From Mytilus edulis (lineage: Eukaryota): a stretch of DNA of 64,000 bases. Below are positions 27,001 to 34,726 of this stretch, piece after piece. Every line of letters begins with the position of its first letter. Within the stretch, counting starts at the first letter, position 1. Where the stretch lies: assembly GCF_963676685.1 (NCBI RefSeq), contig NC_092357.1:17050001-17114000 (forward strand). The letters are read 5' to 3'. Position numbers: made by a program.

Positions 27001-30000
27001 TATGCGTAAAAGAACATATATGCACGTGTCAATAAAGCCTTAAAAGGACATCATCCATTGAAGATCAAACGGTGACCTATTTTGGTAACTTCTAGGTCAT
27101 TTAGTATCTGATGGAGAGTTGTTATCCCTTGATATTATCCCAGATCTCCAACAATAGACAGGTGTAACTACAATATGCCAAGTCCTGTGAATGAATGTTT
27201 CACGGACAATAAAAGATCTGATGTCACAACAAAATCTTCAGATTGTAAACATTAAGATATCAAACAATGCAACCATTAACAATGCCCTTTACCCGTGACT
27301 AGCACTTATTTTTGGTTGTTGTTTTTTCCTGATCAAAACGTTCGTCCTTGTAAATCTCAAGATCTGTTGTACGCTACACTTGAAGATTATGATAAGGCTA
27401 TCGAAAGATTTGTCTGTATTATATATGGATACAATCGCCTTATGATCTTATGTTAATACTTTTATCTTTTATACTTCAGGGCATGCAGTAATAGTTATAC
27501 TCTTTATGAAACAAAGTGCTTAAGTTAAATACCTTTTAGGTGTGAAGGGTTTACAAAGCATTGATCAAAGCCCATTTTGTATGATGTGTAAAAATGTGAG
27601 CACAAACAACACTTTACATACCTTATAAATTACAACAAGAAGCATTAAATGCCTATACATACATGCTAAGAAATATGTTGAAACCATGATATTAATATTT
27701 ATTGTAAGCTTTTTGTTCGTTTTTCTTCTTCTATGCATTTTCCCAACGTTGAGACGAATAGCATTTACAGTCATAGCTGTTGTATTTTATGCCAAAAAAG
27801 AATATGATATTGGAGTACCTTGCAAATGTGGTCAGCCAATCAAAGGTACGGAATGAAATAAAATTATACATGTAGTATAAATATAAACAATGAACTATCA
27901 TCGTATTTTTTTAAACATACATGGTATGCAATGCTAGTATGTTACATTTGTCTACTATGCTCACAAAAGATAGTATTTGAAACAAACATACTTGACAGGG
28001 TACTAGTTTTAAGTGTAATGTTTCTCGTAAACTAAATAATCTTAACATTTTTATTTTTCTATTTTGGATTGTAATTTAGTGAATAGAACAAAACTGTTGA
28101 TTTTTACAAACATGTTTATTTAAACAGTTCCTGGTGTATGAAATATGAAAACCATGAAAGCATATATATATATACAACTCGTCTAAACATCAACCCAACA
28201 ATGTTAGATCAGTAAATTTGCTTTCGCAAATTTTCTGTTCTTCCCTCGCCGGGATTCGAACCCTTGCTACTGAGATATTGTGACACCAAATCGCCTGCAC
28301 TGTAGCCGTCCCGCTAGACCACACGACCACCTGGGCTTCATAAAAATGAAGCTTTCGTTGCCGGGTGTTACCTTTCCACGTCAGTTTTAATCTAGCGTCG
28401 TACTACAGTACATGATATATAAGGCATGAAGATGTTATTCTTATTCATATTTCGCCTTCGGTCTCAAGTAATAAATTAGCTTAACTTCTCTATGAGGGGT
28501 GAAGCTTACATGTAATATCTCTGTTTAAAGAAACAAACTATAACCACATAGCTGGCCAGTGACCTTGACCCTAGTATATAAGCACCTGTTCCATAATAAC
28601 TTGTCATTATTTTTCTAGAGGGTGTGAAGTGAACACTTCACTTGAATTCTTTTTAGTTATTTTATTTTTATCTAAGATTTAGGGGAAAGTTACTAAAGAT
28701 ACATTTAACTTGTCTACGATGTACGACAAGTTCTAATGTTATTTTGTTAATTAGAAATAATAATTCCTCAATTGTCTACGATGTATGACAAGTGTTGATG
28801 GAAATGAATTTAAAAATTTCTTGTCTACGATGTATGACAAGTGTCGATGGAAATTAATTAAAATTTTTATTGTCTACGATGTATGACAATTTTATATATT
28901 CATTAAGTTTTTGCCTTAGTACGATGTACAGGCAGCACATTTGTTACTTATTTCATACTCCTGTTTGTTAAACAGGTAGATATTTAAAAGTATTTCTATT
29001 CACCTGAAGGTCGTGAGTACTCTTCAGAATTTACACGTGTTTTACCTGCACAGGTACACATTATTTTATTACAATGGCTGAATTTGATTATGCAAATGTA
29101 TTGCTTTTGCAAGATGTTTAGAATTATGTTTACACTTACAAGGGTGATGGCTATGATTTTCATCACCTCTGAGTTGTTTTAGAAATTAAAGATGATAAAT
29201 TTAATAGGAAAACAAGAGGTATTTTGAATAAATCCTCTTCTTAAACAGTTATAAAACCTAGTAGTTTTATAAAAGATCATAATGGCATTGCAGTTGGAAA
29301 TAATTGACAAAGCAACAGAACGAGTCAAAAGTAAGTTTTTAAATCTAGTGCTACTTGTATAGCTTCAAAATCTCCTTGATTTGTGAATTTTTCTCAAGAT
29401 AGTGCTGTTGAGATTTAAGATAGGCATGTATACATATTGATGCATTGACTCATTATTATTAATGTAGTAAAGAACATGTATGAATCATGAGGTTTGAGAC
29501 AGTTTCTCTGCCTTCAACTCAAGCAGAGTTTGTAGAGAAACCTGCTGCTTTATTCGAATTTTGCCATTAGAGGCTTACTTTAATGAAGATTTAGTTCTAA
29601 TTTTGATCTGAACTACTGTAATGATACTGTTCATGTACCTCCTTTTGGAGTTTGTGCCATGGCTGATGATAGTCCAGCCGGAACTGAATTTTGATATGTC
29701 TTTTGATCCTGCATTAAGGTTTTCAGAAGCCTTTAAGGCTTCTCTTAGTGAGATTAATGGTCCATTGTCTCATCCTGTTTGTTGAACAGTTTAATCATGA
29801 TTTTGCTTGGAAAATCCCTAAATTGTTTTAAAAAGGCAGAAAACTGTGTCTAAGTTTTCTTCTGGACTTTCTGTGACTGTTAATAATACTACCATGTCAG
29901 TAAATATCAAATCAGGAAAATATCAAGTTCATAGAGGAGTAATGCTATCACCCTGAGAACTGTGAGAATCCTAGTGTGTCTAGGATAAATAACAAGATTG

Positions 30001-33000: not shown

Positions 33001-34726
33001 TGAGGTGATCAAGGGTTTTGATAAACCAAAACTTTGTGTTGTTAGACAATGATTTATCATGTTTTGTGTACAAAATATGTGAGAGAATTCATCTAAGTCT
33101 TTTCGTAAAGTTTAGATAGTTAGAGAGAGTTCTAATTTTAGCTGAGGTTTTAATGTTTACTCATTTAGAGGAACTTCTTCATAAGTGCATTTAGCTTCAG
33201 GATGTTCTATTAAAGACATTATGGCAACAGCTTAGTCTGGACATATGATAAAACTTTTTATAAGTTCTATAAAAGGGAAAGTGAATAATATCAGTACTAA
33301 AACACTTTTCTTCAGTTGTAGTTACTGGATGATCTTGTGATTTCTATGCTTTATTAAATGTTGGCATTTATAAAAATTGTTTTTAGTTTGTGTCTACACT
33401 TTAAACAAGCTAATTTATTACTTGAGACCGAAGGCGAAATATGAATAAGAATGTTCCTTCATCCAAGCATATCTTGGATGTGCAGGATGAAGGTCATTCT
33501 TAGAATATGAGCCTGAGGCTCGAAAGTAATTAATTCCCACCCTATGGATTATCAGTCTGAGACCCACCCTTTTTCCAATGGGTTTTATATTTGGTGGACA
33601 CAAACTTGCTTTAAATTATGACAAGTTATTATGGAACAGGTGCTTATATACTAGGGTCAAGGTCACTGGCCAGCTATGTGGTTATAGTTTGTTTCTTTAA
33701 ACAGAGATATTACATGTAAGCTTCACCCCTCATAGAGAAGTTAAGCTAATTTATTACTTTCGAGCCTCAGGCTCATATTCTAAGAATGACCTTCATCCTG
33801 CACATCCAAGATATGCTTGGATGAAGGAACATTCTTACAGATCAGCTAAATTATCTATAGTAAAGGATCATACAAATTAATGTAAGATACAGTCACAGAA
33901 AATAATTATATTTATAAGTACGTCTGATCCAGTGACAACTCTACAGCAGATTTATCCGTCGGATCACCAGCAGTGATGGTGATACATGGCTGTGTACATT
34001 ATGTATATACAACTATTCTAAACATCAACCCAACAATGTTAGATCAGTAAATTTGCTTTCGCAAATTTTTTGTTCTTCCCTCGCCGGGATTCGAACCCAT
34101 GCTACTGAGATATCGTGACACCAAATTGACTGCACTGTAGCCGTCCCGCTAGACCACACGACCACCTGGGCTTCATAAAAATGAAGCTTTCGGTGGCCGG
34201 GTGTTACCTTTCCACGTCAGTTTTAATCTAGCGTCGTACTACAGTACATGATATTCAAGGCATGAAGATGTTATTCTTACAGATCAGCTAAATTATCTAT
34301 AGTAAAGGATCCTACAAATTAATGTAAGATACAGTCACAGAAAATAATTATATTTAAAAGTACGTCTGAGCCAGTGACAACTCTACAAAAGATTTATCCA
34401 TCGGATCACTAGCAGTGATGGTGATACATGGATGTGTACATTATGTATATACAACTCGTCTAAACATCAACCCGACAATGTTAGATCTGTAAATTTGCTT
34501 TCGCAAATTTTTGTTCTTCCTTCGCTGGGATTCGAACCCATGCTACTGAGATATCGTGACACCAAATCGCCTGCATTGTAGCCGTCCCGCTAGACCACAC
34601 GACCACCTGGGCTTCATAAAAATGAAGCTTTCGGTGGCCGGATGTTACCTTTCCACGTCAGTTTTAATCTATCGTCGTACTACAGTACATGATATATAAG
34701 GCATGAAGATGTTATTCTTATATATC

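What the first reader, a model, noticed from the sequence alone, without database searches (positions are those of the whole stretch)
28437..33837. Coding-dead DIRS retrotransposon with pristine termini: a recently mobilised non-autonomous YR retroelement
Seen: the ~140-bp ITR segments match without a mismatch, the ICR matches both the left end and the right extension, and the flanking repeat rejoins exactly. Yet RT, RNase H, MT and YR are full of stops and frameshifts, including a (TA)(GA) expansion inside RT. Known: DIRS termini are regenerated from the ICR in each replication cycle, so identical ITRs indicate a young insertion. Inference: a long-decayed 5.4-kb master copy is still transcribed, reverse-transcribed, circularised and integrated in trans by an autonomous partner. 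Full-length non-autonomous DIRS of this kind are poorly described.
Basis: partly seen in the sequence, partly recalled or inferred. Interest (0 to 1): 0.72.

Follow-up and report, generated by a model that had tools for sequence, protein, structure and literature searches.

The report
Dead DIRS retrotransposon with intact ends
A mussel-like genome carries a 5.4-kb DIRS-type retrotransposon whose genes are thoroughly broken but whose end structures are perfect, best explained by a defective element that was copied and inserted with proteins borrowed from an intact relative: a known kind of parasitism, seldom documented for this class.

Summary
Window 28437-33837 is a 5401-nt DIRS1-like element. 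Its inverted terminal repeats match 142/142 (146/147 at full extension). Its internal complementary region (ICR) matches the left end 46/46 and the right end 85/85 (89/90). It interrupts a 442-nt tandem repeat that rejoins exactly, sharing the 7-mer ATTCTTA.

The RT-RNase H-methyltransferase gene (30526-32311) is recognisable but has 14-20 frameshifts and 11-14 stops against the three nearest intact relatives, at 45-51% identity. An intact gene in the same window gave 0 and 0. The recombinase is confirmed only in its N-terminal part.

Decay in place would predict 73-86 mismatches between the paired termini; 0-2 are seen. The copy was therefore almost certainly dead when it inserted.

Four ORF fragments from other public contigs share 2-3 of its frameshifts, so the broken lineage is multi-copy.

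Transcription, an autonomous partner and "master copy" status are not shown. No eukaryotic DNA collection was available.

Non-autonomous DIRS elements are known (TOC1 of Chlamydomonas). This is a new member of a known kind, of modest interest.

The parts
28437..33837 (+). Whole DIRS1-like element, 5401 nt (net insert 5394 nt)
   Evidence: bounded by the complementary termini and by the points where the flanking 442-nt repeat breaks off and resumes.
28437..28443 (.). 7-mer ATTCTTA at the left end. The same 7-mer is at the right end (33831-33837), occurs once in the uninterrupted repeat unit (34273-34279), and forms the overlap of the two ICR halves as its complement (33446-33452).
   Evidence: all four 7-mers printed.
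28437..28465 (+). Left terminal 29 nt, the 'divergent ITR' part. It is complementary to the left ICR and only partly to the right terminus.
   Evidence: Term from PMC3266345 (passages read).
28466..28612 (+). Left conserved ITR (perfect over 28466-28607)
28710..28918 (+). 49-nt tandem repeats in the non-coding leader between the left ITR and the gag-like remnant
   Evidence: family D5: 4 copies, 63-100% identical; 2.4 copies, 90% matches.
29636..30095 (+). Broken gag-like (ORF1-like) remnant: 3 frameshifts and 1 stop in the matched stretch
   Evidence: residues 189-331 of P0072 (unnamed protein product, Mytilus coruscus) align with score 107 against shuffle mean 34.5, z 16, 45/143 identical; tblastn E 2e-5. 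P0072 has no Pfam family, so 'gag' rests on position only.
30526..32311 (+). Broken RT-RNase H-methyltransferase gene (one part): 14-20 frameshifts, 11-14 in-frame stops, 19-22 extra codons (including a dinucleotide-repeat expansion) and 29-33 missing residues, against the three nearest intact relatives
   Evidence: P0026, P0029, P0031, two frameshift penalties; 45-51% identity; 145 of 145 proteins give tblastn HSPs here.
30737..31268 (+). Reverse transcriptase domain (RVT_1) remnant: 5 frameshifts, 5-6 stops
   Evidence: the Pfam RVT_1 stretches of P0026 and P0029 (mapped) align with z 56-67, 87-89 of 161-162 identical.
31572..31757 (+). RNase H domain remnant: 2 frameshifts
   Evidence: the RT_RNaseH stretch of P0131 aligns with z 7.6, 22/60 identical.
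32055..32191 (+). Dam-like methyltransferase domain remnant (the part that matched): 1 frameshift
   Evidence: the Pfam Dam stretches of P0104 and P0054 align with z 13-23; 25 proteins at E<=0.001 for the 49-aa piece 32049-32195.
32379..33107 (+). Broken tyrosine-recombinase gene remnant (outer bounds of the matches). The N-terminal part 32379-32594 is secure and has 2 frameshifts and 2 stops. The catalytic part is only weakly matched.
   Evidence: P0004 tail z 19 (36/69 identical); P0086 z 5.3. P0086 residues 403-464, inside its weak Phage_integrase match, against 32919-33107, z 2.2-3.1.
33407..33535 (+). Internal complementary region: left ICR 33407-33452 and right ICR 33446-33535, overlapping by 7 nt. 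It folds as one long hairpin.
   Evidence: -28.6 kcal/mol, z -8.5, 0 of 200 shuffles as good.
33613..33759 (+). Right conserved ITR (perfect over 33618-33759)
33760..33837 (+). Right 'divergent ITR' part plus right extension (rE, about 50 nt). The rE is a hairpin whose stem is closed by the 7-mer and its complement.
   Evidence: -21.3 kcal/mol, z -7.8, 0 of 200 shuffles as good.
28165..28443 (.). Left flank (neighbour, not part of the element): partial unit of a 442-nt tandem repeat. The repeat continues at 33831-34714 with two full units.
   Evidence: families D1, D2, D4; 95.7% and 95.3% to the uninterrupted unit.

Best explanation
This is one copy of a DIRS1-like tyrosine-recombinase retrotransposon (DIRS order) in what is probably a mytilid bivalve genome. 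The copy belongs to a lineage whose genes were already broken when it was made.

Shown:
- The full cis architecture is present and essentially perfect: left terminus, conserved ITRs, ICR, right extension.
- The gag-like, RT-RNase H-methyltransferase and recombinase reading frames are broken many times.
- The element sits in a tandem-repeat unit whose neighbours are uninterrupted. One 7-nt sequence is present at both ends, once in the empty-site equivalent, and once at the overlap of the two ICR halves.
- Other public contigs hold ORF fragments with the same frameshifts.

Inferred:
- An RNA of an already dead copy was reverse-transcribed by proteins supplied in trans by an intact relative.
- Its left repeat was rebuilt from the right one and its ends from the ICR, which is why the paired segments are identical.
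- The closed junction recombined with the target at the shared 7-mer, leaving no duplication beyond that core.
For: Architecture:
- Searches give the three complementary pairs: 142/142, 46/46 and 85/85 as perfect cores, or 146/147, 46/46 and 89/90 at full extension.
- The sizes fit published mollusc DIRS1-like elements. Here they are 29-nt divergent ITR, 142-147-nt conserved ITR, about 50-nt rE, ICR 46+90 nt, and ATT at both ends. LgDIRS2 has 34, 141, 46 and 46-67; AcaDIRS1 has ICR 45-88 (Table 3 of PMC3266345, passage read).

Insertion: one search shows the exact rejoin of the 442-nt repeat with the 7-mer shared.

Coding identity and decay:
- 145 of 145 relatives hit 30516-32311. The intact relatives carry RVT_1, RT_RNaseH and Dam.
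- The gene has 14-20 frameshifts and 11-14 stops. An intact Toll-like-receptor gene in the same window gave 0 and 0 with the same method.

Dead on arrival:
- 12-14 stops require about 0.13-0.15 substitutions per site. That predicts 73-86 mismatches in 283 paired terminal nt; 2 are seen (Poisson P below 1e-28).
- The indel density predicts 4-6 indels in the paired arms; 0 are seen (P 0.002-0.012).

Multi-copy broken lineage:
- One search found four ORFs (P0001, P0146, P0002, P0147), each listed with one contig, of four different lengths (690-2007 nt).
- Each reads in a single frame with this element over 87-133 aligned residues. Across those stretches this element has 3 frameshifts (P0001, P0146) or 2 (P0002, P0147) against intact relatives, using P0026 and P0029.
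- The fragments are 68-91% identical to one another, so they are not one sequence.

Against: - Only this one copy is available as DNA. The flanks of the four related ORF fragments are unknown, so they could be orthologous loci in related species or DNA-level duplicates rather than separate insertions.
- No autonomous partner was found. The nearest intact pol proteins are 45-55% identical and none lies in the window.
- There is no evidence of transcription.
- In the Dictyostelium assay, trans action was shown for reverse transcription only. The truncated element did not complete the cycle (PMC7192593, section 21).
- In Xenopus families the left and right ITRs show a few differences (PMC9210276, passage). 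Identity of the ITRs at insertion is therefore not guaranteed in every DIRS family, and the clock is rough.
- The recombinase catalytic domain and the gag identity are not confirmed by any family model.
Confidence: 0.72

Rival explanations
1. An old insertion of a once intact element decayed in place. Its termini and ICR were kept alike by gene conversion or repair between the complementary segments. No mobilisation in trans is needed.
For: Inverted repeats can be homogenised by conversion (general knowledge, not tested here). Only one DNA copy could be examined. CpG depletion of the termini (observed/expected 0.29) shows a long history as methylated genomic DNA somewhere in the lineage.
Against: Three separate pairs, one only 46 nt long, would all have to be homogenised to 0 mismatches in 273 nt and 0 indels while the 4.8 kb between them took up about 0.13-0.15 substitutions per site. 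The shared frameshifts in four other, mutually different ORF fragments are not explained.
Confidence: 0.1
2. The copy was made from an intact, autonomous parent but was badly damaged in its last replication cycle, by error-prone copying or editing of the intermediate. It arrived dead without there being any dead lineage.
For: Identity of the paired termini only shows that they were copied from one template in the last cycle. The + strand is skewed (G>C +0.155, T>A) and CpG-poor, which could hint at a directional mutation process.
Against: 14-20 frameshifting indels are not what base editing produces. Four other ORF fragments, 68-91% identical to each other, share 2-3 of the frameshifts, so the lesions are inherited. 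Nothing closer than 45-55% among intact proteins was found.
Confidence: 0.06
3. The broken copies, this one included, spread by DNA-level duplication (segmental or tandem) and not by retrotransposition.
For: The element lies in a tandem-repeat array. The flanks of the related fragments are unknown.
Against: The neighbouring repeat units are uninterrupted. The insert begins and ends exactly at the element's own ICR-defined termini, with the junction 7-mer shared. That is the footprint expected of recombinase-mediated integration (model in PMC3266345 and PMC7192593, passages read), not of a duplication with arbitrary ends.
Confidence: 0.05
4. The stops and frameshifts are sequencing or assembly errors and the element is in fact intact.
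For: Long-read assemblies can carry indel errors, and the region contains a dinucleotide repeat.
Against: 11-14 in-frame stops are substitutions. Two 615-723-aa Toll-like-receptor ORFs in the same window are open, and the same alignment method gave 0 frameshifts for them. Independent contigs share the frame changes.
Confidence: 0.02

Closest known systems
Mollusc DIRS1-like elements (LgDIRS2 of Lottia gigantea, AcaDIRS1/2 of Aplysia californica; Piednoel et al. 2011, PMC3266345, passages and Table 3 read)
   Same: Size class (4.7-5.8 kb there, 5.4 kb here). ATT at both ends. Same layout of divergent ITR, conserved ITR, right extension and two overlapping ICRs, with very similar lengths. Gene order gag, RT-RNase H-methyltransferase, recombinase.
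   Different: Those reference elements were chosen because their domains are well conserved, whereas every gene here is broken. The published junction is a 3-bp overlap. Here the identity between the two ends, the ICR overlap and the target runs to 7 nt.
DIRS-1 of Dictyostelium discoideum and the Cappello replication model (Malicki et al. 2020, PMC7192593; passages and section 21 read)
   Same: ITRs plus an ICR complementary to both ends. In the model the left repeat is restored from the right one and the ends from the ICR. The ICR is shown to be essential, and reverse transcriptase is shown to act in trans.
   Different: DIRS-1 is autonomous, has a different ORF arrangement and inserts into other DIRS-1 copies. 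Completion of a full cycle by a defective element in trans was not shown there.
TOC1 of Chlamydomonas reinhardtii, called a non-autonomous DIRS retrotransposon (PMC9940879, passage read; its size and its relation to TOC3 are recalled, not checked)
   Same: A long element of the DIRS order without working genes that nevertheless varies in copy number, so it must use proteins made elsewhere.
   Different: Green alga, not animal. TOC1 belongs to another branch of the order with different terminal repeats (recalled). The element here still shows every ancestral domain as a recognisable wreck.
Non-autonomous LTR retrotransposons such as Dasheng with RIRE2 in rice (seen only as a title in the reference list of PMC9210276; otherwise recalled)
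   Same: Full-length or large elements with intact cis ends and no coding capacity, multiplied by a related autonomous partner.
   Different: Direct LTRs and a DDE integrase with target-site duplication, not ITR/ICR termini and a tyrosine recombinase.

Membership tests
DIRS1-like retrotransposons (DIRS order) | Inverted terminal repeats | tested here: met
   28466-28612 against 33613-33759: 146/147, with a perfect core of 142 nt.
DIRS1-like retrotransposons (DIRS order) | Internal complementary region near the 3' end, in two halves complementary to the left end and to the right end with its extension | tested here: met
   33407-33452 against 28437-28482: 46/46. 33446-33535 against 33748-33837: 89/90.
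DIRS1-like retrotransposons (DIRS order) | The two ICR halves overlap at a short junction sequence that also begins and ends the element and occurs once in the target, with no other target-site duplication | tested here: met
   the same 7-mer sits at both ends, in the ICR overlap and once in the uninterrupted repeat unit. The literature describes 3 bp, most often ATT (PMC3266345). Here ATT is the start of a 7-nt identity.
DIRS1-like retrotransposons (DIRS order) | Reverse transcriptase and RNase H related to those of DIRS elements | tested here: met
   As remnants; 145/145 relatives match. RVT_1 z 56-67 and RT_RNaseH z 7.6. Pfam on 39 stop-free pieces of the element itself found no relevant family.
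DIRS1-like retrotransposons (DIRS order) | Methyltransferase-like (Dam-like) domain after RNase H | tested here: met
   As a remnant; 25 hits for the 49-aa piece; the Dam stretches of P0104 and P0054 align with z 13-23 to 32055-32191.
DIRS1-like retrotransposons (DIRS order) | Tyrosine recombinase gene | tested here: inconclusive
   The N-terminal part matches the tail of P0004 (z 19) and P0086 (z 5.3). The catalytic part gives only z 2.2-3.1. P0086's own Phage_integrase match is below Pfam's cut-off. ESM Atlas and PDB gave nothing. By eye, an H-x-x-R-like stretch and a following tyrosine-containing stretch stand in the expected order; the motif is recalled, not tested.
DIRS1-like retrotransposons (DIRS order) | gag-like first ORF | tested here: inconclusive
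   29636-30095 matches residues 189-331 of an unnamed Mytilus coruscus protein (z 16). That protein has no Pfam family. The N-terminal parts of four long relatives gave z 1.5-3.3 only.
Ngaro-like / VIPER-like YR retrotransposons | Split direct repeats at the ends and no methyltransferase domain | tested here: not met
   One search found inverted, not direct, terminal repeats, and a Dam-like remnant is present. Family features as stated in PMC3266345 and PMC9210276 (passages read).
Non-autonomous retroelement mobilised in trans | No working genes but complete cis-acting ends | tested here: met
   all genes broken; ends perfect.
Non-autonomous retroelement mobilised in trans | Genes were already broken at the time of insertion | tested here: met
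   decay in place predicts 73-86 terminal mismatches and 4-6 indels; 0-2 and 0 are seen. This rests on the model that the termini are rebuilt from one template each cycle (PMC7192593).
Non-autonomous retroelement mobilised in trans | Several copies at different sites sharing the same inactivating lesions | tested here: inconclusive
   Four ORF fragments, each listed with one contig, share 2-3 frameshifts. Their genomic sites are unknown. The listing of cluster members could not be run, and no eukaryotic DNA collection was available.
Non-autonomous retroelement mobilised in trans | An autonomous partner with matching termini | not testable with these tools
   None in the window. The nearest intact proteins are 45-55% identical. 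Protein sets carry no termini.
Non-autonomous retroelement mobilised in trans | Expression of the element's RNA | not testable with these tools
   No expression data were available.

The most novel reading that the evidence does not exclude
A coding-dead DIRS1-like lineage has persisted in a bivalve genome as a long-term parasite of an unseen autonomous relative, still producing new insertions long after its genes died. Its copies differ by my estimate of about 6-9% at the DNA level, while this copy's termini show 0 differences in 273 nt. Its integration uses a 7-bp crossover core, the length typical of classical tyrosine recombinases, and not the 3-bp junction given in the DIRS literature.
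Probability: 0.3. Interest if true: 0.5.

Novelty: new member of a known kind. Interest (0 to 1): 0.3.

Why it matters
The replication of DIRS elements is still largely a model. Only Dictyostelium DIRS-1 has been tested, and there only reverse transcription was shown to work in trans.

A natural copy that was dead on arrival yet has flawless ITR, ICR and extension says two things. The whole cycle can be completed with borrowed proteins in an animal. The cis requirements lie in the termini, the ICR and perhaps the non-coding leader, not in the coding sequence.

It is also a caution for annotation. Screens that require conserved RT, MT and YR domains, as in PMC3266345, skip such copies, and dating by terminal-repeat identity would call them young, active elements.

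The 7-nt identity between junction and target is a single observation. If it recurs in other copies, it would refine the integration model.

Tried and rejected
- 39 stop-free pieces gave no relevant Pfam family (only four weak hits to unrelated families, E 0.0096-0.27).
- A word-based search with a 51-aa RT piece found nothing.
- ESM Atlas gave no usable hit for two recombinase pieces.
- PDB gave nothing useful for P0086, the one relative with a recombinase part.
- The listing of cluster members could not be run, so cluster members and their source names for P0001, P0002 and this element's own ORFs stay unknown.
- A 22-nt stretch of the ICR, and then P0001, were looked for in the prokaryotic genome collection in case of host contamination. 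Result: 0 loci, and 151 pattern matches with none confirmed.
- I tested whether the target resembles the junction beyond the 7-mer (a pseudo-attachment site). It does not: 5 of 30 flanking positions match, rank 22 among 26 other sites with the same 7-mer in the window.
- I considered that the flanking repeat holds a tRNA-derived segment, which is how it looks by eye. ARAGORN found no tRNA in the window and Rfam found none in 27500-36000 at E<=1.
- A second copy or a partner in the window: none by blastn or tblastn.
- One search was an empty script.
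Full report
**The window.** It is 64 kb with no N and about 31% G+C. It holds two single-exon ORFs with leucine-rich repeats and a TIR domain at 47425-49596 (+) and 53837-55684 (-). The only animal names attached to relatives of the element's proteins are Mytilus coruscus, Mytilus edulis and the coral Montipora capricornis. I take the source to be a bivalve, probably a mytilid. That is an inference. 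Nothing suggests human sequence.

**Check of the observation: termini.** The repeat finder and a self-BLAST of the element against the window give three complementary pairs:
- 28466-28612 with 33613-33759, 146/147;
- 28437-28482 with 33407-33452, 46/46;
- 33446-33535 with 33748-33837, 89/90.

Both mismatches lie 5 nt from the inner end of their arm. The perfect cores are therefore 142, 46 and 85 nt, or 273 paired nt without a difference or an indel.

**Check of the observation: ICR and flanks.** The two ICR halves overlap by 7 nt. Its complement, ATTCTTA, is the first 7 nt and the last 7 nt of the element. The flanks belong to a 442-nt tandem repeat. An uninterrupted unit (34000-34441) matches the left flank up to 28443 (95.7%) and the right flank from 33831 (95.3%). 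The two matches overlap by exactly that 7-mer, at 34273-34279. The net insert is 5394 nt.

**What the inside is.**
- No ORF overlapping the element exceeds 66 aa on the + strand or 69 aa on the - strand.
- 39 stop-free pieces gave no relevant Pfam family.
- A HMMER search of 1.84 billion representatives with one 49-aa piece (32049-32195) gave 25 proteins at E<=0.001.
- One of them, P0004, used as a query for longer proteins, gave 220 proteins at E<=0.001 among 3217 candidates, of which 120 are listed. Most are about 670 aa and carry RVT_1; some carry RT_RNaseH and Dam.
- All 145 proteins then in hand gave tblastn matches to the element within 30516-32311. For the 40 best, every match was on the + strand.
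- With all 147 proteins against the whole window, 442 matches were found and none lay outside the element.

**Counting the breaks.** I wrote a frameshift-aware alignment that reports only scores, counts and outer bounds.
- Against the three nearest intact relatives (P0026, P0029, P0031; two penalties each), the RT-RNase H-methyltransferase gene spans 30526-32311. It has 14-20 frameshifts, 11-14 in-frame stops, 19-22 extra codons and 29-33 missing residues, at 45-51% identity.
- With two further relatives the ranges widen to 13-24 frameshifts and 9-16 stops.
- The same method gave 0 frameshifts and 0 stops for the open Toll-like-receptor gene against its paralogue, 468/614 identical. That control is at higher identity than the test case.
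- By domain: RVT_1 at 30737-31268 has 5 frameshifts and 5-6 stops. RNase H at 31572-31757 has 2 frameshifts. The Dam-like part at 32055-32191 has 1 frameshift.
- A gag-like remnant at 29636-30095 matches part of an unnamed Mytilus coruscus protein (z 16) and has 3 frameshifts and 1 stop.
- The recombinase is secure only in its N-terminal part, 32379-32594. That part has 2 frameshifts and 2 stops and gives z 19 with the tail of P0004 and z 5.3 with P0086.
- The recombinase catalytic part matched the one available relative only weakly, z 2.2-3.1.

**Was it dead when it arrived?** With the codon usage of the window's intact ORFs, 5.35% of single-base changes in sense codons make a stop. Twelve to fourteen stops in about 575 codons then need about 0.13-0.15 substitutions per site. 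That much change after insertion would give 73-86 mismatches in the 283 paired terminal nt. Two are seen at full extension and none in the perfect cores (Poisson P below 1e-28). The indel density predicts 4-6 indels in the paired arms, and none is seen (P 0.002-0.012).

The model summarised in PMC7192593 (passages read) has the left repeat restored from the right one and the ends restored from the ICR in each cycle. Under it the paired segments are identical at insertion. Nearly all the gene damage therefore predates this insertion.

**Is the dead lineage multi-copy?**
- A search with P0001 found four ORFs of 131-134 aa (P0001, P0146, P0002, P0147), each listed with one contig, of four different lengths (690-2007 nt).
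- Each reads in a single frame with this element: P0001 over 133 aligned columns at 85%, P0146 over 103 at 86%, P0147 over 87 at 80%, and P0002 over its first 90 residues.
- In those same stretches this element has 3 frameshifts (P0001, P0146) or 2 (P0002, P0147) relative to P0026 and P0029, at both penalties. With P0031 the counts are 2-5.
- An ORF that runs in one frame with this element across those points must carry the same net frame changes.
- The four are 68-91% identical to each other, so they are different sequences. From 80-87% amino-acid identity in neutral sequence I estimate about 6-9% DNA divergence (my calculation). That is far more than the 0-0.7% between this copy's paired termini.
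The contigs' flanks, species and nature are unknown to me, and I did not try to trace them.

**How it most likely works.**
- Shown: the architecture, the broken genes, the clean insertion with a shared 7-mer, and the shared lesions.
- Inferred: RNA from a dead copy was reverse-transcribed by proteins of an intact relative. The termini were rebuilt from the right repeat and the ICR. The joined ends recombined with the target at the 7-mer.
- The ICR folds as one long hairpin (z -8.5). The right extension is a hairpin whose stem is closed by the 7-mer and its complement (z -7.8).
- PMC7192593 mentions a 3' hairpin as a possible primer of reverse transcription in DIRS-1. Whether this one does that is not tested.

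**The 7-mer.** The literature gives a 3-bp junction, most often ATT, with integration by recombination with an identical target sequence (PMC3266345 and PMC7192593, passages read). Here ATT is followed by four further identical bases. By my estimate from base composition the chance of that is about 0.007. It is one case only. The flanks beyond the 7-mer show no likeness between junction and target: 5 of 30 positions, rank 22 of 26 sites.

**Rivals.**
- Decay in place with conversion of the termini would have to homogenise three pairs, one of only 46 nt, and does not explain the shared lesions.
- A one-off damaged last cycle does not explain indels or shared lesions.
- DNA-level duplication does not explain ends that coincide with the ICR-defined termini in a repeat whose neighbours are uninterrupted.
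- Assembly error is contradicted by the substitutional stops, the open host genes nearby and the independent contigs.

**What stays open.**
- The listing of cluster members could not be run.
- The two scans of the prokaryotic genome collection found nothing.
- Copy number, insertion sites, presence or absence in other individuals, expression, and an autonomous partner with the same termini are therefore all untested. The nearest intact pol proteins are only 45-55% identical.

**Comparison with what is known.**
- The architecture and sizes match published mollusc DIRS1-like elements (PMC3266345, Table 3).
- Non-autonomous members of the order are known: TOC1 of Chlamydomonas is called a non-autonomous DIRS retrotransposon (PMC9940879, passage).
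- In Xenopus, 36 of 75 DIRS-like families show some degeneration of repeats or ORFs, and the ITRs show a few differences (PMC9210276, passages).
- Phrase searches for non-autonomous, nonautonomous or defective DIRS found 5 papers. Of the 4 listed, only the Chlamydomonas work uses the term for an element. Searches showed no paper on such elements in molluscs in their listings.

**Verdict.** This is a new member of a known kind. Interest 0.3.

Noticed in passing
window 28613-33406, compared with the rest of the window: The element is strongly CpG-depleted. Observed/expected is 0.21 inside it, 0.13 in the RT-RNase H-MT part and 0.29 in termini plus ICR, against 0.83 for the rest of the window and 1.05 for a host ORF. 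This suggests a long history of germline cytosine methylation in the lineage. Because the paired termini are still identical, the depletion must predate this insertion.
   Followed up: partly
window 28613-33406: The + strand is skewed: G over C by +0.155 (+0.18 in 30526-32311) and T over A (AT skew -0.09). The rest of the window is near zero. Whether this is the family's normal coding-strand composition or a directional mutation process could not be told without DNA of intact relatives.
   Followed up: partly
window 28165-28443 and 33831-34714: The host of the insertion is a short array, about 2.6 units, of a 442-nt tandem repeat. Units are 93-96% alike and the array is bounded on both sides by TA microsatellites. 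By eye one stretch on the - strand looks tRNA-like, as in a SINE head, but ARAGORN and Rfam at E<=1 found no tRNA.
   Followed up: partly
window 28710-28918: Four copies of a 49-nt unit lie in the element's non-coding leader, each starting with a short palindromic stretch (family D5). This may be a cis-acting region; it was not studied.
   Followed up: no
window 33407-33535 and 33760-33837: The whole ICR folds as one long imperfect hairpin, and the right extension is a hairpin closed by the 7-mer and its complement (z -8.5 and -7.8; 0 of 200 shuffles as good in each case).
   Followed up: partly
window 47425-49596 (+) and 53837-55684 (-): Two intronless Toll-like-receptor-type ORFs (LRR plus TIR domains) lie in opposite orientation about 4 kb apart. 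They are 76% identical over 614 residues. The second ORF starts later than the first, so it may be truncated at its N-terminus.
   Followed up: partly
window 35122-35671: A degenerate 39-41-nt tandem array lies just downstream of the repeat that hosts the element (family D3, 8 copies, 9.2 copies at 66% matches).
   Followed up: no
protein P0064: A DIRS-type RT protein of 677 aa is labelled by its source as coming from a metagenome-assembled genome of a clam symbiont (Candidatus Thiodiazotropha endolucinida). It is more likely host DNA binned with the bacterium.
   Followed up: no
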